This document shows, in pieces, positions 11,811-60,720 of a stretch of DNA of 64,000 nucleotides (positions are counted from its first letter, which is position 1; each line of letters begins with the position of its first letter). The notes beneath the pieces were generated by a model that was not told the origin of the DNA, did not search any database, and saw only the letters and a list, made by a program, of their open reading frames with translations. Source of the DNA: Azolla caroliniana (taxonomy: Eukaryota > Plantae > Polypodiophyta); NCBI GenBank assembly GCA_043228905.1, contig JBHGNT010000018.1:8618001-8682000 (forward strand), in the 5' to 3' direction. A program made the translations under genes and the position numbers.

Positions 11811-12957
11811 GTTCCTATGTGTATGTATTAAGTTGGTGCACAAATAGTGTGTCCCGATTAAGACCAAGAAGTTGGGGCAAAACATATAAATGAAACAGAG
11901 ATGTTCCAAATGACTTCGAGAGAACCAATAGAACCAATTGATGATGAAGCGGGGGACCTTGTAGACTTAGAAGACATATCAAAGTCTGAACATAATCATG
12001 ATTCTGCTGAGGATACTGAAGAAGCCAACAAGGGTAATCTTGAACAAATAGCATATCCTAAAAAGCCTCTGTTACCGGACTTACTGTTAGATTATAAATG
12101 CATATAACTTTTGAACATTGACTAATTTTAAAAGTCTCCTTTAATATATAATTCAAGTTTATGTATAAAGCAGTGTCCGACTAATGGATTTAAATTTTGA
12201 GTTTAATTAGTATGTGTACATGTTGGGTTTGGTCCCCATTCTTGTTTGCCAGGGTATTGGTGAATCTGAATTTATAGTTTGACAATTGTTATTATTTGGC
12301 AAGTTATTTTCCAACTAATGAACTTAAAGTTTGAGTTTAATTTGCATGTGTACATGTTTCCGTTGCTCTCCCTCCATTCTTGTTTGGGGTAAACTTGAAT
12401 ATAAATTTATACTTTGACATATGTTATAATGGGCAAGTTATTGTGTATGGGTTCTTTGCACATTGAAAGTGTCACGTGTCATGTGTCATTGATTGGAATA
12501 ATTTTCTCGATATAATTGTATCTTGTAGTTGCAACCCTCACAATTTCCTTTAAGATGTCTTATATATAAATATATGGACAAAATTAACAGAAAGCACTTA
12601 TTTAGTGGGGTGTGATTTTCATATTATGTAAAATGAAGTCACAAAATTAGCACAAGTCAATTATTTAGTACGATATGATTTTCATATAAAGTAAAATGGT
12701 TGGTAGTACAATTATACTTGCATGGACTTCTAGACCTTATATAAGAATTGGATAATAATTTGGTAGGGAGAATATGAGACTATTGCTTTTGCGATCGTGA
12801 TAATGTTTAGTTCTAAAATTTTCTAAGTTTTGATGAACCATGTACACATGCATTGTACCTTCTTGAAAGGCTCTTAAGATAAGGCATTTTTTAAAATTGT
12901 CACCGAAATGTCAAAAAGAGAATGTGACATATTACCTATACAAATGACCTAGTGTTC

Positions 12958-15900
12958 ATTCCAAAAATGGGGTCTAGACTTTGTCGGTCCATTTAAACCA
13001 GCAGCAACAAAAATGAGCAATCGGTATCTTATAGTCGCTACCAACTATTGTACCAAGTGGGTCGAAGCAAAACCTCTCCGGGATAATACAACAACATCGA
13101 CTGCAAAGTTTCTATATGAATATATCTGGTGCAGATTCGGATGTCCAATCGAACTCATTAATGATCAGGGTAGCCATTTCATTAATAATGTAATTCATGA
13201 ATTAATCTATCACTATGCAGTTGTTCATAAAAGAAGTATGCCTTATTATCCTTAGGCCAATGGATTGGCCGAATCGACCAACAAAACAATTCAAATGGTC
13301 CTACAGAAAAATCGTCAACGAAAATCGAATCAATTGGGATCTGAAGTTGCATAGGGTATTATGGGCCTATTGAACGACTTACAAAACCTCTTTTCGATCA
13401 ACTCCATTTCAGTTGGCTTTTGGATTAGAGGTTGTTATGTCAATTGAATTCCTAATTCTAACTTTACGAGTTCAGGTAGCAGAACAACTTGATGAGGAGT
13501 AGTCTGAAAGAATCAGAGGGGAGGAAGGTCGGCTTCAATCTCTGTGGTATCTGGAATAGAAGCAACGAAGAACCAAAGCCTTTGTCAATCGTCATCAAAT
13601 GGAAAAAAAAGGTTTTTCAACATAGGCAAATTGGTCCTTGTGTTTCAAACAAAAATTGACTCTTAGTCTCCCTAGACCGGTCCATATTGGATTGTCGACA
13701 ACAAAAATAGCACATATCAGTTAGGCACACTCGCATGCGAAATATTGCCAAAATGGGTTAATGGATTTCAACTTAAACCATACCAACGGCCAACTCCGAC
13801 TAATCCGTTCATAACTACACCAGACACTCCCTTGAGTGATCGACTGTAATCGATTAAAAAGGCTATTATTGTAAATACCAAGTAATAGAAAAGGGAAAAA
13901 AATCATAATCAAATATTGGCATAAGTATTTCTTGGCACTATCACTTTCACAACACAACTATTTATAGAGTGACACATTAACGCATTAAATTCATTTATAA
14001 GAGTGTCTCTTGAAAGACGTCATTAATAGAAGATTCTATTTTGAAGTCGTTTCATGTTGAGATATGGACCACTTCTACACCGATACAAAACTCTCTTTTT
14101 CCCATTTTCCTGACACAGAAAAGCACAAAGAAGCAAAATCTCACAGAGCACACAGAAAACTTCGACCTCAAAATCTTGCACAGAGAACAGTATCCTTTCC
14201 TCAAACAAAGAATCAATAGGAGAAATTTCGATTGAAACCGCTAAACATCTCTTTTTCCCATTTTCCTGACACAGAAAAGCACAAAGAAGCTAAATCTCAC
14301 AGAGCACACAAACAACTTCGACCTCAAAATCTTGCACAGAGAATAGTATCATTTCCTCATACGAAGAATCGATAGGAGAAATGTCAATTGAAATCTCTAA
14401 ACATCTTAGAAATTGGCTGCAAACTAATGCGTTGGGGGGATATATCCTAGTAGTTGAAGCTCCACCCAATGAATAGGCAAAGGAGGTCGCAAGTCAAATC
14501 AACATAGACAAGATCACCAACAAACAGGTACGTCAAATCTTAAATCTAAATAGTAAAGGGTACAATCACATGGACCACGTGGAGACCAAGGTCCTCGACT
14601 CTTATTTCGGTGAGTATTCTCCTTCTCCAAAAGCTTATAGAACTCAAGGAGGTTTGGATGTTTTCTTCCAAAACGTTGCAAAATTTTTGTTGGAGGTAGC
14701 ATGTATGAATCCGAAATCTTACTGCGTGCCAAAGCATAAGGCAGGATTTATCATAGCAACCTATGAGGGAGAGAAAATCGATTGGGGTTACATTACCGGA
14801 GCCATGTTGAGACCACATTTAGTAGTGATTAAGGGAGGGAAAGCCATGAAGCTGATCATTGCACAATGGCAAACATTATTATGCCCAATGCCATTAGCAA
14901 TCAGGGGATGTAAGGCCCCGAAAAAGGACAAGGGGCAATCATCGTAGGCATTGCCAAAGCAATCGACAAGGCGAAAATTCTTGACAGGACCACGTGAGGA
15001 GTGGTAATATGCCCAATGCCATTAGCAATCAGGGGATGTAAGGCCCCGGAAAAGGACAAGGGGCAATCATCGTAGGCATTGCCAAAGCAATCGACAAGGC
15101 AAAAATTCTTGACATGAGCACGTGAGGAGTGGCAAGAAAGTCGGGCAACAACAGAGAGACCAACAACTAAGAAAGTCGTAGAATCAAGGGCCCAGAATCA
15201 ACAACCCATCGATAAAGAACAACCTTCCAGGACACAATAGGAAGAAAGGAGACTACATGAAGAGACGACCACAACTCAACCACCACTTCCCAAGAAGAAG
15301 AGTCGTTCGACTTCGCAACAAGTCGATAGAGAACAACAAGAGAAACCCCAAAGTCGACACACAACATAGAGTGTCGACCAAGAAATGTCTAAAAGAAAAC
15401 AAACTAACTAAAGACTGGAACCAGCCAAAGAAAAAGAAGAGGAGATTAGTAAAATAACATCAAACACAACAAGAAGAAGGGACGACGAACAATGTATCAC
15501 AGGTGATAGACATAGAGGATACAATGACACTAATAGGTATCATTGAGTAAGGCAAATCATCAGGAAAACCCCCAATGAAGTCTTAGCTATTCCAGACATA
15601 CCATTAGCAACTCACAAAATTGCCACCATATTGTAGTTTGGCACATCATACAAGTTGGTCGACTGGTTAGCTAAACACCTGCAATTTGCTTCGAATCAAC
15701 TAGGGCAGGAACACAAGGATTGAGAGATGATCCAATGCGCATTACTAGGAGAAATAGAGCCGAAAGACGAACAAGAGCTTAATAGAATCGCACGAAAACA
15801 AGATGTAAAGAATAAAGGGATGTTTATTCAAATGCCACCTCTACATACATCATTGGTCAAAGTTCATCAAGGACTAGCCAAAACTATTCATGCAGCAAAG

Positions 15901-18439
15901 GAGATGGCAAAAGTATGTAAATGTATGACCAAGGCGCGGAACTAATGAAGAAAGAGTGGTTGGAAGCTACTCAATCCAATGCATAATTAATTGTCTGGCC
16001 ACAACAAGCTGAATCAAAACTTAAGGAAGTTGAAGAATGACTCCAAACATACGACTAGGCCATTGTACAAATACCAAACAGGTGGCTATGGGAGGAGATG
16101 CAAGAAAAAGATGACATAATCAAGAGAGCCAATAAACGCATAGACTAGGTAGACACTGAACTACAAAGGATGAGAGACTCTGAAAGGCACATCAACAAGT
16201 GGAAGCTTTTCAGGAACGAATCCATCAGATGCTTCGCAAATAGAAGGAGGAGTTTGACAAACTCAATTATCAACATACAACTCTCAAAATACATTTTTTA
16301 TCAGAATCAACAAATTATCACTGATCTCAATAGGCAAATTCAAAGACAGGAGGAGTTATGTCAAAAGCATACGAAAAAATTCAAAACAGAAAAGGAGAAA
16401 ATGCATCAGGACTTTAAAGATGATTAGGAATGGCTAGCACAACAAGTAACGCAACTTACAAACAAATATGAGCATGCACGAACCTCACTCTTGGTAACAT
16501 AAGCCAAATTACAATTTGAACTGGACTCACATGTAGCTCGACGAGATCAATTACAAAATGAGATCAGTTCTCTGGGATATCGCCTCAGCATGGGGGAACT
16601 GAGAATTTAGGCAATATTGAGCAAACACAAGAAAATGATACATCAAAAAATCATTGAGTCTCTAGACAAAGATGGAAGACTTGGTCGCTCAAGCAGTTGA
16701 GTTACAACTATTGCGAGCAGACCAAGTGAACAGGAAAAAGGAAGGTCAGGGTTTCTACAAGTTAGATAAGAATAGTATGACAATCGTTCGAGACGAACTA
16801 TCGGGAGATTTCTACAAGATGACAACCCAACATAGGTTCGAAATTACCACATTGTTAGAGGAATATGACGACCATCAAATACAACTCACGTTGCAACTTG
16901 AAGCCTATGAAAAGGACCATCGTCGAAGGGAAGGAGAGCAAAAAGGAAACTGAGGTCGACGACGAAGGAACACAGCAGCAATCGGAGTAGGATGAAGAGA
17001 CTGATACCTCTGAAGAAGCTTAATAGAGACGACAAGACCAGGAGCACAATGACCCAAAGCCATACCAAGAAGATCCTGAGGAAGAGCAGACGCACCATGA
17101 GCATCATAACAAGCTTGGACGGAGTACGATGTACGACTGAAGGATCTACAACAAACAAGCATGGATCAGGATAAGGGGACAAAGTCGACTCCTTGGCCTG
17201 AACAATCACAGCAAACAGACAATCAGCAAGTTTCGGACGACTCTAAACAGAGCGGAGATCGGGACGAGGAAGATCCAAAATTGCTAGACATTTTGACTGA
17301 GGACGCTGACGAAGATGAGCTTGAGGGCGACGACTAGAACGAGGACGAAGAGGAGGATGTGAAGGATGATGAGGATGATGAGGATGACTAGATACTGATT
17401 TTTGGGGTTTGACCGTGCAAGGCACTGTCCCACGGGTGTGCCATGTGTTACCCGGTCAACTAGCCAAAGTATATCGGTCGACAAGAGAGTCGTAGTCGTA
17501 GTCGTAGAGGGCTAATGTGAAAGGAAATAGCCAAAATAATATAATAGCTATGAAAGTGTTTTTAGAATTCAAGCTATTGAACACTAGAAGAATATAAGGT
17601 ATGAAGCATTCACATTTGGAGGGCAAGAACACGAACAAAGATCTTATGGAGAAGTCAAACTAAACAAGGTCGTTGTGTCATAGCTAAAAATAGGAGATGA
17701 AAAAGCGTTAAAAAGTTGAGAGAGCAGGAAGAATAGTATATCTACAAGAAGTGAGAAGAGATTGGTTAGAAGAAGGTAAGAGAGAAAGTAGAAAGAGGTG
17801 AGAAGAAGAATAGGAGAAAAGGAAGGAATTTTGTGAGTTTGGGGGATAGGAAATCAAGTCGTTCTTTAGTTGTGGTTGTATTTGGAGTTTATCCGGTTTC
17901 TATTGTCTCCATAATAGAATATAGTAGCATTCTTGTCTCTTTCTTTTCTCTTCTCTATCTTTTCTCTATATGTCTTTCATAACCAAGTAGAAAAACATAA
18001 CAGTTAGTTGTAACTGTAAATTCTTGCCAAACGGTAATTGTATTATCTTGGTAAAGTCTCTCAGGTCACCTATAAAAAGGGATCGAGAGCATTGTAACAA
18101 TATCAATCTGTTTTGTTATAACTTAATATAATTTTGTTAGTAGAGTATATGTTGTGTCTCGAATTATTATTTAGAATCTGTATTACTCGGAGTACATATA
18201 GTTATCAGTCGATCATAATAGTATTCGATAACCATATTAATTAAGTATGGTAATTTGATATATGTGTCAGGTTTTATCGTGTTTAAGAAATCATAAAGCA
18301 TAGTCGACCAAATCTAATCTCCAACCACAACTCTATTGATAGAACGACTTAGAGAGTAAGACATTCGACCCTTTGTGTTGGTCGACCCAAACAACAGCCT
18401 AACGCCAAGGGAGACCAAGAGCCACCTCTTGGCATAACA
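12958..18439 (+). mobile_element. Degenerate non-chromovirus Ty3/Gypsy element (Athila/Tat-like), 3' part: integrase, extra ORF and long 3' LTR
   Basis: FQKWGLDFVGPFKP…YCTKWVEAKPLRD integrase is homologous to 54467-55261. An extra-ORF relic lies at 14381-17391. The LTR starts tgttacccgg at 17446 and probably ends …cataaca at 18439. Confidence 0.8.
14381..17391 (+). pseudogene. Disrupted extra 3' ORF of Gypsy element, homolog of 51029-53803
   Basis: MSIEISKHLRNWLQTNALGG…, YFGEYS…YRTQGG…IIATYEG.K.DW, ELQLLRAD..NR.KEG…RDEL..DF and LLDIL plus an acidic tail all align with the ORF at 51029-53803. Many stops. Confidence 0.85.
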
Positions 18440-48428: not shown

Positions 48429-50129
48429 GTATAAGCCCATGAACAGAGCAAAAATACCCACGAGGGTGTTAGAGTCTGAATGGAAACTTCTGAATAGAAA
48501 GGCAGTGGCCACCATCAGACAATATGTTGATGTGAGTGTCCTTCAACATGTGGCAAACGACACAAATGCTTATGAGATGTGGTAGAAGTTGTGATGTCTA
48601 TATGAGATGAATAACGTCCTCAACAAATCATCTTTGATGAGAAAGATTGTGAGGCTGAAATATAGGGATGGAGAAAGCATAGTGGAGCATGTAAGTACAT
48701 TCATGGGGTATGTGAACCAACTGGCAACAACCAAGTTTCCCCTTGAGGACGCAATGCAGGCCATCCTACTACTGTGTACCCTGCCAGACAACTGGGAGAA
48801 TCTGGTGGTGACTCTCAACACCTCGTGTCAAGAAGAGAACTTGTCACCACAAGTGGTAAAGACAAGCAACTTAAATGAGGAGACTAGAAGGAAGGACAAG
48901 GGTGTCCTATGCTAGTCAGAGTCAAACTTGATTCAACATACCGACAAAGGAAGGAATCGGCAAATAAGTCTACCAAGAAGGGACAAGTCCTAAGGTAGGT
49001 CAAAGTCTAGAAGGAAACTGACATGTTTTTATTGTGGAAAGTTGTCATGACAGAGTGACATCAAATACGTAGTTAGTTGGGGATTGAACCTACATCCTCA
49101 CATCTACAAGATGTCATGCCTAACCATTTCAATATGAGCATGTATTTATGTATAATAGTTTATTGTTATTCTAGCATATAGTATATAATTTTCAGAATAT
49201 TTTAGTCTTTAATATATTCTAGAAATATTCTGTGGTGTATTCTAGATGGGTATATTCCACAGATATTTCTCAAGTATATTCTAGAGATATTCAATCTCAA
49301 AATTTGTATAAATACTTGTAACCTCCTTGGTCCCTTTCAAGAGATTCAACACTAGTCATTGACACATCAATCTACTATTCTCGTTTCATTCCATCTTGTC
49401 TCCTTCTTCATCTCTGTCTTCATGCTCTCCATAGCTTCCTAAGTTCATAGTCTCATCACTCACAACTTCTAGAGTTCTTAGCCTCATCATTTCTAGTTCC
49501 ATGTTTGTCATCCATGCTCTGTCATAGTCTGCAGTTCATGTGTCCTTGCTAGTTTGAATCCCTTCCAATTGGAAGCATCACCCATCTTCGTTATTGCCCT
49601 TGCTTCTAGAGTTACCATTGTCATAGTCCTTGCTTCAAGAGTTACCATCATTAACATCCTTGGTTTTAGAGTCGCCATCGTCACCATAGTCAAAATCATT
49701 CCTTGTAGAGAAGCTTCCTCATCATCATTGTCTTCATTGCCTCATCTTCGACATTATGATTTTTCAACACTTCTTGTTGTCTTCATCAAATGGATTGATT
49801 TCGATCACTCACCTTCACAGTTCCAGTGGGGGTTACAACCACTCACTTTCATGGTGGGGTTCGAATCATTGCCCGTTTGCAATCCAATTTCATTTTAGTT
49901 CAAGTCTCGTGCCACATTCCTTTGGTGAGGATCGATTTTGATCGCTCATCATCTAGTTCTGGTGGGGGTCACAACCACTCACTTTCCTGGTGGGGATCAC
50001 GTCTGTTTCTCACTAGCGCTATCGTTTGTGCCATGTTTTGGGTCAACCTCGACTATTTACCCTCTTATAATAGAAGAAGTCGAGTCGACCGCTTCACTTG
50101 CACTCCTTCGCCCGTTTGTGTTCCAGTTC

Positions 50130-50549
50130 TTGGTGAGGGCCGGATGGTCGCTCACTCCGGTTCGTGTTCCAGTTCCCGGTGAGGACTGCATGGTCATTCA
50201 GACTCGTTTGTGTGTCCGATGAGGACTGCACCTGGTCACTCACATTCTCATTCTCGGTGAGGGTTGCAAATGGTCGCTCACGCCTGCTCGTGGTCTAGTT
50301 CCCGGTGAGAGGGCCGCATGGTCGCTCACTCCCGCTCGTGTTCCAGTTCCCAGTGAGGGCCGCTTGGCCACTCACTCTCGCTCGTGTTCCAGTTCCCGGT
50401 GAGGACCGCATGGCCGCTCATGCCCGTTCGTGTTCCAATTCCCGGTGAGGGCCACACATGGTCGCTCACTCTTGATCGTGTTCCAATTCTTGGTGAGGGT
50501 CGCATGGTCGCTCACTCCTGTTCGTGTTCCAGTTCCCGGTGAGGACCGC
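50130..50549 (+). repeat. ~45-48-bp tandem repeat array (GAGGRCCGCATGGTCGCTCAC core), left part
   Basis: Degenerate head-to-tail units; continues at 59917. Confidence 0.9.
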
Positions 50550-50987
50550 TGTTAACTCTTAGGGCCGGACAATGGCCTAACATAGGGTGTCTACGGAAGA
50601 CACTTCACCAAAGGGGTGTTACGGCAACAGGATTAGACTCAACGATTAATCCGACTTAATTAAGTTACTTAGCAAGATCGTCCTTAATATTCACACGCGT
50701 AAGATATAACAATGAATGCAGAACGACAATTAACACAGAGAGATAACAACACTAAGCTTTATTACTTAACCGTTGTTCATTACATTGTATCCGGGCCTTT
50801 AAATAGGTTTCCAGTATGTATTACAAAACGGTGCCATCCGCACCTGTTCGGGATCGGTCCAGATCCGGAACGGCATACCGATTCCGGTCCGTCCGTCCAC
50901 ACTCATAGCTTACCTACAACCATTCCTACTAATTAAATGACTCCCCGTTTCACACTCTAGACTCCTTTGCCGGCCGGGCCGGTAACA
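50550..50987 (-). repeat. 3' LTR
   Basis: Direct repeat of 59479-59916. Confidence 0.97.
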
Positions 50988-51028
50988 CATGGCACGCCCT
51001 TGTATGTTGAATCCACATCCGACCCTTG

Positions 51029-53803
51029 CTATTCCTCGTCCAAAATATCCAGAATGCTTTGTTCGAGAGTCTCCAATGGTTCATCTGGAATTGGTTGTTG
51101 TTGTTGCTGCTCTGTTGATGGCTGCTGCGACGGGTCCGTTGGTGGCGGCTGCGGCTGCTCCTCCATTTGTTGCTCTGACACCGGCGTCTCCGTCGTTGCT
51201 CCCTCCGTCGTAGTGGTCTCCGGTGTACTGGTTCCGGGCTGGCCCTCGGCCGGCGACGGTTCCTCATCACTAAGGTTAACCGTTGCCGCTTCCCGTGCTT
51301 TTTCTTCCAGAACCCAGGACCGCTCGTAGCTTTCAAACTGGATTTGAGCGTCCAGCCTATCATCATCTAGCTGAGCTACGAGTTGCCGGACCTGCGCCAG
51401 CTGTTCATCCGCCAGGACTTGGAAGTCATCGGCCAACTCGTCCCGTATGGTGGTGAAGTCCTCAGAAGTCAACGTGTAACAATCATCTCCTTCCTTCCGC
51501 CGGTTTGCCACGTCTGCCCGTAGTAATTGGAGTTCCGCCGCATTTTGTGCCCACTTTGTCCACCATCTTACGGAGCTTTCGTCAATCAAGCGTTTTGTCT
51601 GATTCAACCATGCCCGGAGGATGCACTGAATCTGGCCCTTTCCCAACTGCGATTTGGTCTCCGCAGCTTGCCGTTCCTCCTTCAATTGCTTGATGATTTT
51701 GACGTTGTCTTCCACGTGCTCCTTGTAATGCGTCAATTGCCTTTGATATGTGCTTCGTAATTTCTGCAATACCGTTGACGCTCTCTCCTTTTCTTCCTGC
51801 TTTTGCCTCTGGAGCTCCATCCGGACCTTCTCCGCCTTGTCCAACCGTCTTGTATTTTCTGCACGTTCGTCGGCGATCGCCGTCACGGCCCGATCAACTT
51901 CCTGCTGGAGGTCGGCCATACGTTCCTTATGCTCTGTTTCCAGCCGTTTGTAGTCCCGGTGCAGGTGCTCAAAATCATCTGTCTTTTGCTTGAGCCGTGT
52001 GTTGATCTGTCGACGGGCCCGGTCCTCACGGTCCTTCTACTGGCGGAGCTCTTCCTTTAGCCGTTCCATTTCCGTTTCCGCCATCTTTCGCAACTTGTCC
52101 TTTTCCTGTAGCACTTTGTCTTTTTCCTCCCTTAGCCGGTCGTACGCTTGATGGCCTTTCCGAAGGCTCTCCTCTGCCCGGCGAAGGTTCTCAGTAGTCT
52201 TCTTTAATTCGGCTTCGGCCGCTGTCTTCAATTCCCGTTCTCGGCTCCTTAGCGCTTCTTGTGCGACAAGTTCATCTTTCAATTCCGCAAGCTCCTGGGC
52301 TTGCGCCGCATCTCTCTTTGGAACGATTTTCGTTGCCGGGGTCTTATTGGTATGTACAGGTTGATCTGTTTCTTTATTCTGTACACTTACCGGAGTCACC
52401 GGTGATTGGATCTGTGTTGTCGTTAAGGCCATTTTGGCCATCTCTACCGTGACCTGATCCAAGTCTCTTTCAAGGCACCGGATTCTGGACCGGGCCGTCT
52501 CTAGTTGTTCAGTTGTGACGAGCAACCGTTCGCTTTGCGCTCTTTCTTCCGCCTCAATATACCCCACTGCTCCGGCAATCTGTTCGCTTATCCACCGGAG
52601 CCACATGCTACCGGTGCTTTGTGATTGCGTTTGCCCGGAGGTTTGACGGATGGGCTCGCTTGTAGATGGGTGGTCCCGCTTGATTGCGCCGAGTTGCAAT
52701 TCCGTTTCTGCCCGTGGACCACCCTGCTGTCCTGGTTCCCCTTGCGCTTCTTCTTGGTTGGCCGAGGGAGGTTGCATTGACCTTTCCGGCTTTGGCGGGA
52801 TGGGACTTGCCGGTGTTGCCGGTGGTGCCGGGGCTTCTGATTCCGGTGCCATGCGCACCGGTTCCGGTTCTTGCCTTGGCATGGGAGTCTCAGTATGGGG
52901 AGCCGGTGTTCCCTCCGTCTGAGGGTCCGAACATTTCCCGACTGCCTCAAGGGTCCTTGCCGACAACCGTCGCTGGAGGTGCTCCGTAGGCTCCTCCTCT
53001 ATTTCCTCTTCCTGAGTCCCGGCATTGAGTTTTGCCGCCAAGGGGTCCGCTTCTCTATTCACCGGTCGGCGAAGTGTAACCTTTACGGGCCGTGCCGGTG
53101 GTTCCTCCTGCGCATCCGTTGGCCGCTTCCGGCTGGCGCTCTCCTTTCCCGCCTGTTCTACGTCCGCCGCCTTCCCTTTAGTGGCCTTAGAGGCCAACAA
53201 CTGTTGTCTTTTGGAAGCCATCTTTGGGGTGCCGTCCGCCACTCTTCCTTGCTTCTTGGGCTGGACGGGTGGCACAAGCAAGGTGAGCCACTGCGTTACG
53301 GCGTGCCATATCCTCCGTCCGTCTCGGCCTTCTTTGCCGTCTTTGCCTCTAACGATCTCAATCGCCACACACAACCCGTCTGCGATCAATACCGGCCAAT
53401 CCACCTTGATCCCTTCATAGGTGGCGATGATCATTCTTGCCCGGTTATGTGGCATGACAGGGGGTCTAGGGTACACATGGCCGTATTCGTGGAGCACACG
53501 AGCAATCTCGCGGAACATCATATCTCCGCCGCCCTGTGTCCGGTAGCCCTTGATGGCTAGGGAGTACTCACCAAAATACCTGATGAGTTGCTCCGAGGTC
53601 GGATTGTCAATCGTGAGTATGCCTCCCTCCGGAAGGCTTGTTAACGCTCGAATCGCCTCCGCCGTTATGACCTCTGTGTCGATTTCTTTGATCACCTTGT
53701 CGGCTTCTTTGTGTGGTGGTACCTTCATAATCATCAAGAAGCCCTCGAGCCCGTGTTGCTTTAGCCAGGTCTTGGCGGCTTCCGACAGCGTTTGCAGGTC
53801 CAT
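51029..53803 (-). CDS. Extra retrotransposon ORF of about 924 aa, unknown function (N-terminal conserved region, Pro/Glu linker, coiled coil, acidic tail); one in-frame TAG at 52037-52039
   Basis: ORFs 52037-54109 and 51029-51919 share a frame and are separated by a single TAG. Homology with 14381 places the start at MDLQTL (53803). Confidence 0.8.
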
Positions 53804-54180
53804 GTTTGTGTCGAGGTCGGCTTTTGGTGGCGAGATTGGCTGGTGATGAGAGTGAGAGTGAGTGAGAGAGAGTTCAGAAGGTGGGGGTTCTCTGTGTGTA
53901 GGTTCTCGTCTGATGATCTTGCAGTGCCTTGGTGCTTCTGTGCTCCTAGGTTCGTGAAAGTAGAGGGTCTCCACGCGTAGTGGTTTTTCTCTGTGCATTC
54001 TGGTGCCTTTTTCGAGTGTGTGCACGTCGTGTACTAAAATAGCATTATGTCCTGTGGTGGCGCTTAAATGCCCACTACGTACCTTTTTGCTCCTCGCTCT
54101 TTCGTCCATTCATTCCTCGCTTTTGCATGATTACTTCGTTTTATTTATTTATTATTTATTATTTTATTGTTAATGTGACG

Positions 54181-57100
54181 TTACTTGTCCGTTGGTCCAA
54201 TCGGACCCTTACCGGCCTCATTCTCCCCAGTTACCTGCTCGCCGTTTCTGCCGTCTTGGTGGTTGCCGTTTCCCTCATAGGTTGCCATTTCCGCACTGGT
54301 GTCGGTCCTTTGCTCAAATGGGTTTTTGGGCATCGGTCCTCTATATGGCTTCAATCGGAATCCGTTGACCCATTTGCCTAGCACTTCGCCGGCAAGTGTC
54401 CCTAACTGGTAGGACCCATTATACTCACGTGTCAGCCAATACGGTCCGGTCCATCTAAACCGTAGTTTACCCGGCATCTTGCTCATCTAGGTCTGAAATA
54501 CTAACACCGGTTTGCCGATTGCGAACATTTTTTCGTTTCCTTTCCTGTGCCGGTCGACAAATGCTTTCTGTCGCCGTTGTTCCAATTCTAAGTGCAGGAT
54601 GCTTTTCCAGTCGTTGTTCCTTGAGTTCACACAACGTTGTTAACCGTATTGCCTCCGACTCCTTCTCGTTCAGCCGTTCCCGTAGCTGGATCCGTAAGCT
54701 GGGTACTTGGAATTCCACTGGCATTACCGCCTCTAGTTCGAACACTAACCGGAACGGTGTTGTTCGGATGCTCGTTTTATATGCCGTCCGGTATGCCCAA
54801 AGCGCGCTATGTAGCTTGGTATCCCAATCCGTTCGGTTTTCGTTGACGATCTTCCGGAGGACATTCTGGAGCGTTTTGTTCATCGATTCCGCTAACTCGT
54901 TTGCTTGCAGATAGTATGGTGTGCTCCGTTTATAGGCAACGACATAGAATGTCGTCAGGCTTTCAACTACTTGGCCGAGAAAGTGCCCCCCTTGGTTGCT
55001 TATTAATTCGATTGGGCACCCGTAACGGCCCCAGATGTACTCGTATAGAAATTTCTCCGTTGACGCAGCGGTGATGTCTCTTAAGGCTTTGGCCTCCACC
55101 CATTTCGTGCAGTAATCCATTGCGACAATGACGTACCGATTACCCGTTCTCATTGCCGGTGGTTTGAACGGTCCAACAAAGTCCAGTCCCCACTTCTGGA
55201 ATGGCTCGAGTGGTAGTACCAGCTGGTGTGGCATACGAGCCTGCTCCGTTGGCTGGCCCATTCGCTAGCATAGGTCACATTCTTTTGCGTATCGTACCGC
55301 ATCTCTTAATGTCGTTGGCCACCATAGGCCACTTTGCCATATTTTCCTAACCGTCGCATCTCCGGCATAGTGACCTGCGGCAACTCCGCAGTGGGCTTCC
55401 CTCAGTATCAGGACCTTTTCATCGCTGCGCACAACCCGTCTCCATATGCCGTCCGCGCCCTTGTGGTAAAGTGTGTCTTGTAGTAAGCAGAAATGTCGGC
55501 TTTGCACCGCCAGACGTTTCCGTTCGTCCCGGTTCATCTCTTCCGGAGGCAGTCCTGTGCTCAGAAACTGGTGCATGTTTGTGAGCCACTTGTCTTCTTG
55601 TGCCACCGTCTCATCTGCTGCCGTTTCCGTAGTATCGGAGCATCCGGCTGTGCCACCGGATCTGGCCTAAGAACCGGCTTAATGCCTTTGCCGTTGCCGG
55701 CGCCGGCGCTTCTAATATGGCTTTCACTTTGTCCGGGTCGACTGCAATACCTTCCTGGCTCACAATATGTCCTAATAAAGTTCCACTAGACACGCCAAAT
55801 ACACACTTTGCCGGATTCAAGCTTAGCCAGTACGCTCTACACTTTTCTAGACAAAGACGGAGGTGCTGAAAATGGTCCTCCTCCCGGCTATAGACGGCGA
55901 AATCGTCAAGGAAAACCTACATAAAAGCCGGGATATATTCACCAAAGATTTCCATGATGATTCGTTGAAATGTTGCCAGTGCCGTTTTGAGTCCGAACAT
56001 CATCACCATGGCCACAAACACCACCCATTCGGTGACGAAAGCCGTTTTCTCTTGGTCGTCGGGGTGCATCCGGATTTGATTATACCCGCTGAATCCGTCT
56101 AGAAAGCTATAGACCTCATGGTCGGCGACGGCATCCAACACTCCATCTGTGAACGGGAGTGGAAACGCATCCGTTACCGTAGCCGCATTGAGTTTCCGGT
56201 AGTCCACACAAACTCGAATTTTTCCGTTCTTCTTCGGTACGACTACGATCGGGCTCAACCATGTCGCTTTCTTTACCGGACGGATAAAGCCAACTCTTAA
56301 CAGTTTGTCGATTTCCTCCTTGGCTTTGGCGGCATAATTGGGATTCATCCGGTACCGTCTTTGTGCCACTGGTTTTGCGTCCTTGCTCAAGTGAACCTGA
56401 TGCTGGTATAACTGAGGGTCGAGTCCTCGCATGTCTTCGTATGACCAGGCGAACACATCGCGAAATTCCGTGAGAAGTGTGATCATCGTCGTTTTGTCTC
56501 CGGTCTTCATCTCCTTGGCGATGTGCACCGGTTTTGTTTCGTCCGTGGTCCCTAGGTTCACCTCTTCAAGTTGCGACGCTTTTACGCGCTGTGAAACGGC
56601 CATTTCCCGTTCCAACGCTTCCTGCGCTTGCCGTAACTCCCGGATTGTGTCTTTATCCGGTTCTGCTTCAGCCTGTTCCGGCTACGGTAAGTATGGTGCT
56701 ACTGCTTCAGCAATGTCAATTTCGAAGAGGGGTATGATCTTCGGGTTTTCCTGCAAGTACTGAGCTTCTTCTTCGTCAGCTAACCCTTCTAGCATGTTGA
56801 CGCACTCTGCATACAATGGTGTACATTCCTTGCCAGTGCTCGTCCTTGGCTGTGTTGGTACCTGTACCTTGGCTTTTCCTCGTCGGAAGGTAATTATATT
56901 TTTCCTCCAATTCTGTTTGATATGTGCCATTTTCAACCATGGCCGCCCCGACAATAGTGGGTATGCGCCTTGTGCCTGTAATTGTAGCACTACTGCCGAG
57001 ATGTGAAATGTATGACCGCCCACGGTGACTTCTAATTTCCGTATTAATCCTGTCGGCCGTACTGAGCTTGTATCGGCCATCCGTAACCAGAACGGACACG

Positions 57101-59425
57101 GCTCCCACTCGTGGATTCCTAGGGCATCACACGTCAGGAGGCTTATTACATTCACCCCGGAGCCTCCGTCTATAACTGTGCCGGGGAGTTCTTTCCCTTT
57201 TACAATGGCAGTGATTACCGGACTGTTGGTGTCTACCACCATTGGTCCCTCCTCCGGATTCGAGAAGAGTACCAGTGCCGGTGATGATTCTCCTACCATC
57301 ATGGCCGTCTTCAGTCCTTCCGTGAATCTTGGCACGAGCTGTAGGAGTCTTCCTAGTGGCAGCGTAATCTGGCATTCTTGCAATGCCTGCCATATCTCGT
57401 TCTCGAAGTGACTGCCGCTGGCATGCCCTACGGTGTTCTCCTTTTGCCACTGTAAGTCTGTGACATTCTGCTCGTTTGCTTTCTTTACCCATTCCGTCGC
57501 TTGCTTCCGAATGGTCTCCTACGTCTCCCATTCCTTGGCCATGCCCTTCGACCTTGTGGTCACATGCTGCAGATCTGCCACCTCAGGGACTACCATATTT
57601 ACTGCCGGTCGTTTTTCATAGCTCTTCACCGGGCATTGATTACTATAATGACCTTCCTGTCGACAGTAGTAGCAGTAGGCTTTCCGGGTATTGCTGGATT
57701 CGGCATTGTCTGTTGTACCCGAGGCCGGTCCTGTGGTAAGTGCAGGGTTTTGGGCCGGTTGGCTGCTTGAAGCTCCTTGTTCCGGATCCCGTAGGTAGCT
57801 GCCTTTTTTGAAATGCCGTTTTTTGTTATAGTTCTTCTTATTGCGGTACTCTTGACGAGGTTGCTCGTTATATCTACCGTATTCCTCCCGTTGCTGACGA
57901 TACCCGGGGGAGTGCTCCCAGTCGTAATGTTCGTATCGTCTATTGTAATCCCGGTACCGATCATATCTATCATGCCGGTCATAGTTATCTCGCCGATCAC
58001 CGTACCGGACATCATTCTCCCGTCGATCGCCATACCGGACATCCTGTGCCGGTCGGTCGCGGTCCATTCGCCGCCAGCGTTCCTCTTCTTCATCCTGGCT
58101 GCTGCGTGGCTCTATTTGTCGGATGGGCGGTGCTTGCCGATTCAATAGATTATACTCGCACCTATTCGTTGTATGGCCCTTGGATTGACAGATTACACAT
58201 TGTGTCCTCATAGTGCATTCTAGTGCCGAGTGTCCGGAATTCAAGCAAGTTGTGCACTGTATTATTGCTTGCCGAAACCGGAGGTCTTCATCGGACGGTA
58301 ACGCCCGTTGGAGTGCTCCCAGTGTGAGCCAGGAGCTTGTCTTTTCCATCTCTCTCACCCGGTCAATGACCTGGTCGATGGTACTTGTGCGGAAGTCAAT
58401 TACTGTGCAAACCGTGCGTAGGGGTTCCCGGAGCACATTTAGGAATATAGTCCGTAATTCCTCCTCCGGGGGTGCGCGGGCAAGCTGACTATGCATCCGT
58501 TGAAACCGGATGACAAATTGGGGAATGCTCTCCCCTGCCTCCTGTCGGATGGTATAAAATAAGCCCACCATTATTGTCTAGTCCACCTCCTTTTGGAAAA
58601 AATGCAAGAATTTAGCTTTTAAATTTGCGACGGTGGTGATGGTAGATGGGTCCTGCGTCCGGCGCATCTTGCTGCCGGTCCCTCCAATGTGACGCCAAAT
58701 TCTGCTATCTTAGAGCGTTCCTCTTCTTCCGGGGTCAATTGCTAGGACACATGGTTTGCTTCCCATGTCTGTTCAAAGGTGTGAACATGAGCTTCCGCGT
58801 CCGGATCATCTCTATACTTGGAGTACTGGAACGACATGTCGTCGTCCGGTATCGGTGCGCGGGCTGGCAGTGTTGGTGGTTGTTCCGGGATTTTCTCCGG
58901 TGTCAGTGGTCTTTCCTGATTTGTTTCCGGCGTCGGTGGTCTTTCCTCTTCTTTTGGTAATGGAGGCCTCTCCTCTTTGACTTCTGGTGTCGGAGGTCGC
59001 TCTTCCTCTGCTGGTTTCGGAGGTTCCAGTCTTAGCACTTCCGGTTCCGGTGTCGGTAAGGTGTCCGATCCTTCGTCCTCCAGTCCTCCCGGGGTTTCGC
59101 TGCTGCTACGGTAGTTCGTGTGCACGCTGTATTCCCCTTCGGAATCCGATTCATACGCTGAAAAGGCTTCTGCTTCGCCTTCTCCGTTTGCCAACGCCTG
59201 GAGAAGGGATTCGGTTTCCCGGAGGTTGCTTAGGCTGCTGCCGTCATCCGGGTGCGATGTTTGCTGTAACCAGAGGGAGTCCTCCGCTACTCTTCGGATT
59301 ACGTTGGAAAACGAGCGATCCGCTCTAATTTCCTGCACCGCTTGCTGGAAAGCCTCTCGTCTCCTTTGCCTTTCGGCAAGGCGTTGAGTTTGATCTGTAA
59401 CCAGGTCGTCCGTTGATCTAGTCAT
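54181..59425 (-). pseudogene. gag-pol polyprotein of Gypsy 50550-59916
   Basis: Gag 59425-57519, PR about 57160, RT 56615-55630, INT 55606-54181 including GPY/F (RWTGPY). A few stops and frameshifts. Confidence 0.9.
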
Positions 59426-59478
59426 CCATCTGTGTCGTCGTTCGCTGCAAAAATAGGAATCGTGGTTGCCAAAAACTG

Positions 59479-59916
59479 TGTTAACTCTTAGGGCCGGACA
59501 ATGGCCTAACACAGGGTGTCTACGGAAGACACTTCACCAAAGGGGTGTTACGGCAACAGGATTAGACTCAACGATTAATCCGACTTAATTAAGTTACTTA
59601 GCAAGATCGTCCTTAATATTCACACGCGTAAGATATAACAATGAATGCAGAACGGCAATTAACACAGAGAGATAACAACACTAAGCTTTATTACTTAACC
59701 GTTGTTCATTACATTGTATCCGGGCCTTTAAATAGGTTTCCTGTCTGTATTACAAAACGGTGCCATCCGCACCTGTTCGAGATCGGTCCGGATCCGGAAC
59801 GGCATACCGATTCCGGTCCGTCCGTCCACACTCATAGCTTACCTACAAGCCTTCCTACTAATTAAATGACTCCCCGTTTCACACTCTGGACTCCTTTGCC
59901 GGCCGGGCCGGTAACA
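59479..59916 (-). repeat. 5' LTR
   Basis: Direct repeat of 50550-50987, followed by the PBS-like motif. Confidence 0.97.
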
Positions 59917-60720
59917 ACCGCATGGTCGCTCGCGCTCGTTCATGTTCCCGATGAGGACTACACATGATTGCTTGTGTTCCAGTTCCCGGTGAGGGCTGCA
60001 TGGTGACTCACTCCCACTCGTGTTGTAGTTCCCAATGAGGGCTTCCTGGTCGCTCACTCCCGTTCATGTTCGAGTTTGAGTTCTTGGTGAGGGCCGCATG
60101 GCTGCTCACCCCGTTCCTGTTCTAGTTCCCGGTGAGGGTCGCATGGTCGCTCACCCCGTTCGAGTTCTAGTTGTTGGTGAGGGCCGCATGGTCGCTCACG
60201 CCCGTTCATGTTCCAGTTCCCGGTGAGGGTCGCATGGTCACTCATGCCCGTTCATGTTCTAGTTCTCGGTGAGGGCCGCACATGGTCGCTCAATCCTATT
60301 CCTGTTCCAATTCTCAATGAGGACCGCATGGTCACTCACGGACGTTCATGTTCTCGATGAGGACTGCACATGATCACTCATGTTTGTTAGTGTTCTAGTC
60401 TTTGGTGAGGACCACACATGGTCGCTCACACCTGTAAGGGTTCTAGTTTCCGGTGAGGACTATACATGGTCGCTCACACCTGTTCATGTTCCCGATGAGA
60501 ACTGCACATGATCGCTCACACCTGTTGGGGTTCCAGTTTCTGGTGAGGATTGTACATGGTCGCTCACGCCTGTCGTTCCAATCTCCGGTGAGGACCGCAC
60601 ATGGTCACTCAAGTCCCTTGTTGTTCTAATCTCCGTTGAGGACCACACATGGTGGCTCAAGTCCGTCAGTGTTCTAGTCTTCGGTGAGGACAACATATGG
60701 TTCCTCACTCCCGTTGGTGC
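59917..60720 (+). repeat. ~45-48-bp tandem repeat array, right part
   Basis: Roughly 17 degenerate units of gaggrccgcatggtcgctcac…gttccagttcccggt. Confidence 0.9.

What the first reader, a model, noticed from the sequence alone, without database searches (positions are those of the whole stretch)
51029..53803. Conserved ~920-aa extra ORF of unknown function downstream of integrase in a Gypsy family, present in two diverged copies
Seen: after INT, element 50550-59916 carries a sense-strand ORF broken by only one TAG. A much older element with a dissimilar LTR (12958-18439) has a homolog at the same position. Collinear protein blocks are conserved from start to end despite heavy DNA divergence: W-L-x-x-x-x-L-x-G, YFGEYS…YRTQGG…IIATYEG.K.DW, ELQLLRAD..NR.KEG…RDEL..DF, and LDIL plus acidic tail. 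The middle is Pro/Glu-rich then a long coiled coil, and no clear transmembrane segment is visible, so it does not look like a classical env. Known: Athila/Tat/Ogre lineages carry extra ORFs, mostly uncharacterised. Inference: the protein was under selection and could be an anti-silencing, scaffolding or movement factor, perhaps expressed from a subgenomic RNA (a CT-rich leader precedes the ATG).
Basis: partly seen in the sequence, partly recalled or inferred. Interest (0 to 1): 0.8.

Follow-up and report, generated by a model that had tools for sequence, protein, structure and literature searches.

The report
VANC-fold gene in plant retrotransposons
A lineage of plant jumping genes carries an extra gene of about 990 codons that selection has kept in several families, and its front domain is predicted to fold like the DNA-binding anti-silencing protein VANC21, so it likely helps the elements resist being switched off rather than acting as a viral envelope.

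The parts
59479..59916 (-). 5' LTR of the family-A element
   Evidence: 97.9% identical to the 3' LTR
59459..59471 (-). Primer binding site complementary to host tRNA-Arg(TCG); one mismatch in this copy, 13 of 13 in most siblings
54310..59425 (-). gag-pol (zinc knuckle, protease region, RT, integrase), broken by stops and frameshifts
55631..55633 (-). Junction of a deletion of about 570 bp that removes the RNase H region in this copy
   Evidence: comparison with L064
53804..53998 (-). In-frame N-terminal extension (65 codons) that includes the 'CT-rich leader'; probably coding
   Evidence: weak in the pairwise test
53264..53803 (-). Globular N domain (180 aa), predicted VANC21/PMD-like fold, followed by a basic patch
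   Evidence: dN/dS 0.11
52304..53263 (-). Pro/Glu-rich linker with a short conserved W-L-x-W helix
   Evidence: dN/dS 0.37
51644..52303 (-). Long charged helical region, likely a coiled coil; holds the private stop at 52037-52039
   Evidence: dN/dS 0.13; sense codon in 24 of 28 copies
51299..51643 (-). Conserved C block (W..W...AAELQ.LRAD..NR...G), no known family
   Evidence: dN/dS 0.11
51029..51298 (-). Acidic, variable tail ending in a short conserved LDIL-type motif and the stop codon
50988..50999 (-). tRNA-Arg(TCT) 3'-end-like site plus 2-nt spacer where the polypurine tract should be (shortened in this copy)
50550..50987 (-). 3' LTR
50545..50549 (.). Target site duplication ACCGC (second copy at 59917-59921)
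12929..13825 (+). Integrase remnant of the decayed second element
14327..17390 (+). Decayed homologue of the extra ORF (different family, many stops and frameshifts)
17427..17445 (+). Full tRNA-Arg 3'-end-like site and spacer before the second element's 3' LTR (starts at 17446)

Best explanation
The ORF is a conserved accessory gene of a single-RNase-H Ty3/gypsy lineage, kept by purifying selection, whose N domain is predicted to share the VANC21/plant-mobile-domain fold and likely binds the element's own DNA to oppose host silencing. Shown: fixed position 3' of integrase, conservation across families, selection, no membrane segment. Predicted: the fold. Inferred and untested: a separate mRNA from the short spacer after pol; nuclear import through the basic patch after the domain; DNA binding by the N domain; oligomerisation through the coiled coil; recruitment or exclusion of host chromatin factors by the C block and acidic tail. 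The protein would act in trans, so broken copies such as this one could still benefit.
Confidence: 0.5

Rival explanations
1. The same DNA- or chromatin-binding fold is used for another nuclear step: tethering the integration complex to chromatin, nuclear import of the cDNA, or transactivation of the LTR promoter.
For: Fits the fold match, the basic patch and the lack of VANDAL-type motif arrays. The integrase shows no chromodomain.
Against: TSDs are varied 5-mers with no sign of a preferred site. The only solved structural match is an anti-silencing factor.
Confidence: 0.22
2. It is a cytoplasmic scaffold or RNA chaperone for particle assembly and reverse transcription, perhaps needed for the unusual tRNA-like plus-strand site.
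For: Long coiled-coil-like region. The ORF and the tRNA-like site co-occur in 57 of 65 loci examined. A chaperone role has been proposed for env-like ORFs (PMC7264820, part 1 read).
Against: Co-occurrence is expected from shared ancestry. The N domain's match is to a double-stranded-DNA binder.
Confidence: 0.15
3. It is an envelope or cell-to-cell movement protein.
For: It sits at the env position, in sense orientation, with a coiled coil.
Against: No hydrophobic segment in 5 of 5 full-length homologues (maximum KD19 0.87-1.42). No match among predicted viral structures at E<=0.001, tested with the weaker model only.
Confidence: 0.05
4. The VANC21 match is a chance helical arrangement, and the domain is an unrelated new fold whose role cannot be read from structure.
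Against: The match covers 94% of the domain, stands 4 Z units above all other rows, improved with the better model, and lands on a plant transposon accessory protein.
Confidence: 0.2

Closest known systems
VANC21 of Arabidopsis VANDAL21 (PDB 9lnk; PMC5735166)
   Same: Transposon accessory protein; predicted shared fold over 169 residues; a coiled-coil region is also reported for VANC21 (PMC13547354)
   Different: Encoded by a MuDR DNA transposon; VANC is called dicot-specific; VANDALs carry tandem arrays of the target motif, not seen here; 8% identity; no DUF1985 Pfam hit
PMD-coiled-coil extra ORFs of Tat/Ogre elements (PMD-A; PMC4408406, PMC5418596)
   Same: Gypsy extra ORF with a globular domain of the VANC/PMD type followed by a coiled coil
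   Different: Those lie antisense 3' or sense 5' in elements with an additional RNase H; this one is sense 3', has no PF10536 hit, and the pol has one RNase H
Athila 3' sense 'env-like' ORF (PF03078, PF20167; PMC6317226, PMC11728184)
   Same: Position and orientation, 5-bp TSD, no additional RNase H; weak Atlas lead
   Different: No Pfam match, no membrane segment, tRNA-Arg primer instead of mostly tRNA-Asp, no polypurine tract
[not shown]
   Same: Single RNase H in a non-chromovirus-type pol; present in seed-free plants
   Different: No extra ORF was seen in the passages read; an earlier study found none in moss Tat-like elements (PMC4408406); placement was not tested by a tree

Membership tests
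Ty3/gypsy LTR retrotransposon | LTRs, TSD, PBS, domain order gag-PR-RT-RH-INT | tested here: met
   (intact family-B pol); RH deleted in the window copy
VANC / DUF1985 | Fold of the DNA-binding domain | tested here: inconclusive
   [not shown]
VANC / DUF1985 | Sequence match to PF09331 | tested here: not met
   No member of A2 (20) or A3 (60) matches
VANC / DUF1985 | Tandem arrays of a target motif in non-coding parts of the element | tested here: not met
   (two elements examined)
VANC / DUF1985 | Sequence-specific DNA binding and demethylation in trans | not testable with these tools
   needs EMSA, ChIP or a methylome
PMD (PF10536) extra ORFs | Sequence match to PF10536 | tested here: not met
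PMD (PF10536) extra ORFs | Structural match to a PMD model | not testable with these tools
   No AlphaFold DB library on hand; the link is indirect, through VANC21
PMD (PF10536) extra ORFs | Coiled coil after the globular domain | tested here: inconclusive
   Judged from composition only
Athila | 3' sense extra ORF, 5-bp TSD, no additional RNase H | tested here: met
   TSD exact in 8 of 9 further elements, one mismatch in the ninth
Athila | tRNA-Asp/Asn/Ala primer; PF03078 or PF20167 domain | tested here: not met
   tRNA-Arg sites; Pfam negative; table rows
[not shown]
Phygy / Selgy | 4-bp TSD, tRNA-Trp or Ala primer, no extra ORF | tested here: not met
Retroviral-type envelope | Signal peptide and membrane anchor | tested here: not met
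   (hydropathy scan only)

The most novel reading that the evidence does not exclude
A seed-free-plant gypsy lineage carries its own VANC-type, family-specific anti-silencing protein. The VANC/PMD fold would then be an ancient retrotransposon invention, older than flowering-plant MAIN and VANC, and the 3' 'env-like' ORFs of plant gypsy elements would be anti-silencing factors rather than envelopes. The same lineage would also prime both cDNA strands with tRNA.
Probability: 0.3. Interest if true: 0.85.

Novelty: new variant of a known kind. Interest (0 to 1): 0.58.

Why it matters
The role of extra ORFs in plant gypsy elements is a long-open question. A selected, Pfam-less family whose core is predicted to match a solved anti-silencing factor gives a direct test: does an intact member bind and demethylate its own element? 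It also bears on whether the PMD/VANC fold began in retrotransposons or in host genes, which PMC5418596 calls fully open. Several families with divergent versions in one genome allow a test of family-specific targeting.

Tried and rejected
Programmed read-through of the TAG: rejected; 24 of 28 copies have a sense codon there, 2 a stop and 2 a gap. Chance antisense or overlapping frame: rejected; constraint appears only in this frame. Pfam: no relevant family for the ORF, A2, A3 or the C block. PDB by sequence: 0 hits at E<=10 with A3 and A4. Foldseek on PDB (both models) and BFVD (first model): none at E<=0.001. Genome searches for PF10536 and PF20167 found nothing and their controls did not ring; PF09331 gave three sub-threshold hits in RT sequence. 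Complex prediction of N domain with C block: no answer, alignments not used. Expression: no RNA holder listed; laying the two listed contig sets gave 0 contigs on family B and 22 short, mostly divergent contigs of uncertain kind on the window element. Two metagenome scans returned no locus, so the context of outside homologues is unknown. Host clade: a MIR1023 search stayed under the cut-off. The first INT control was sliced out of frame and is void; it was redone. dS is saturated in several between-family pairs. The VANC21 structure paper (doi 10.1266/ggs.25-00096) is not held, so any comparison it makes with retrotransposon proteins is unseen; bioRxiv supplements were not seen.

Full report
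1. Observation. The frame window:51029-53803 (-) gives 924 codons with one TAG at codon 589. It lies between integrase and the 3' LTR of a Ty3/gypsy element (50550-59916; LTRs 97.9% identical; TSD ACCGC). This copy is defective: gag-pol has stops and frameshifts and about 570 bp of the RNase H region are missing. The second window copy matches at aa 6-202 (32%) and 755-828 (41%). It is a 5'-truncated, heavily decayed piece and is closer to another family (43% to family B).

2. Spread. A search of the own genome with the N domain returned 150 matches of 150 scored (4,475 candidates), 91-100% identical. The decayed copy's domain also returned 150 of 150 scored (4,176 candidates), including a young family B about 38% identical to the window domain. 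In family B, 14 of 19 fetched copies have no stop in an 877-codon frame, but most were picked for long open frames. Outside the genome a profile found 363 cluster representatives at E<=0.001. The 120 best of 242 hits come from ENA or JGI contigs, none with a Pfam domain or informative name. Their genomic context and taxa are unknown. The host clade was not established here; other notes of this scan say 'likely a fern' (unchecked).

3. Selection. In 28 family-A copies, private variants are near neutral outside the N domain, as expected after insertion (pN/pS 0.8-1.0). Variants shared by three or more copies are depleted of amino-acid changes: ratio 0.45 (p 1e-6) downstream of the N domain, 0.19 in the C block and 0.41 in the coil; the two other frames give 1.50 and 1.04, and the LTR shows no effect. 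The N-domain value in that test is biased because copies were chosen by similarity to it. In family B the same test is borderline (0.61, p 0.051). Pairwise dN/dS against a sister subfamily (L137-L140; dS about 0.9) is 0.11 for the N domain, 0.37 linker, 0.13 coil, 0.11 C block, 0.75 tail and 0.23 overall, with RT 0.04 and INT 0.03. Family B against L134 gives 0.17 overall.

4. Anatomy. The 'CT-rich leader' is in frame with an ATG at 53998, is open in most of 30 copies and is constrained in frame in one test (p 0.007) but not clearly in the pairwise one (0.69, CI 0.34-1.46). The protein is thus probably about 990 aa: extension, 180-aa globular domain, basic patch, Pro/Glu linker with a short W-L-x-W helix, long charged helix, conserved C block, acidic tail. 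No membrane segment was found in 5 of 5 full-length homologues. Family B has a TATA-like word in the short spacer after pol, family A has none obvious; a separate mRNA is inferred, not shown.

6. Mechanism. VANC21 binds a 9-base motif and strips methylation from its own transposon family (PMC5735166, passages). Its DUF1985 domain resembles the PMD of MAIN/MAIL1 (bioRxiv 2024.09.27.615353, passages; PMC13547354, section 10 and passages). PMD-A is encoded by gypsy elements (PMC5418596, passages), often with a coiled coil (PMC4408406, passages). The simplest reading is a nuclear protein that binds the element's DNA through the N domain, oligomerises through the coil and opposes silencing in trans (0.5). 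Against it, no tandem motif arrays were seen in two elements, and the fold does not fix the function. Rivals are chromatin tethering or transactivation (0.22), a scaffold or chaperone for particles (0.15) and an envelope (0.05); separately, the fold match could be chance (0.2).

8. Second feature. There is no polypurine tract. Two bases before the 3' LTR lies a near copy of the 3' end of host tRNA-Arg(TCT) with CCA, in 57 of 65 loci holding the C block (some places were fetched twice; 0 of 1,300 shuffles). Of 37 genomic matches to the tRNA 3' end plus CCA, 30 were examined. Several are tRNA copies joined to the PBS side of an LTR, as expected. Three independent cases in three families are joined through the family's own 2-base spacer to the LTR's 5' end (L147-L149 as one event, L159, L169); one lies outside the 5' LTR of a full-length element. 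This supports tRNA priming of the plus strand, though template switching onto a packaged tRNA could give similar junctions, and the site can also fold as a hairpin in family A. The scan has noted this site many times in this genome; whether it is tied to the extra ORF is open.

9. Novelty. Extra ORFs of this layout are a known kind, and VANC-PMD similarity is in print. I found no paper on this family or on a structural match between a gypsy 3' sense ORF and VANC21 in nine full-text searches (listings, with passages read as cited); the VANC21 structure paper itself was not available. Earlier notes of this scan report a VANC21-like gene inside gypsy LTRs of another genome (unchecked). Verdict: a real, selected gene and a new variant of a known kind, with a testable anti-silencing hypothesis; interest 0.58.

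Noticed in passing
window 50988-50999 and 17427-17445; L061-L130: The polypurine tract is replaced by a tRNA-Arg(TCT) 3'-end-like site in all families of this lineage examined; its upstream part also resembles the tRNA's D-arm region.
   Followed up: yes
L147-L149 (G000:C2:12004220-12018007), L159, L169: Reverse-transcribed tRNA-Arg with CCA joined through a 2-base spacer to the 5' end of LTRs: likely fossils of plus-strand tRNA primers. L156 and L157 may be further cases.
   Followed up: partly
L146, L152, L161: tRNA copies with CCA joined to the PBS side of family-B LTRs, read well beyond the usual stop; L152 looks like a two-LTR junction.
   Followed up: partly
window 50111-50549 and 59975-60719: The element inserted into an array of 46-48-bp tandem repeats that belongs to another repeat.
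   Followed up: no
window 50550-59916: CCGG is 2.85-fold over expectation from base content in this element (2.1 in L067, 1.5 in the rest of the window), and CG is not depleted.
   Followed up: no
L063:1767-7906; L015: Some family-A copies lack RT, RNase H and integrase but keep gag and the extra ORF (uninterrupted in L063): possible non-autonomous derivatives.
   Followed up: no
window 14087-14398 and 14877-15132: Two tandem duplications (156 and 128 bp) inside the decayed second copy.
   Followed up: no
G000:C18:8632480 and G000:C232:45073: The decayed copy has a 99% identical twin on a small contig, probably an assembly duplicate or recent segmental copy.
   Followed up: no
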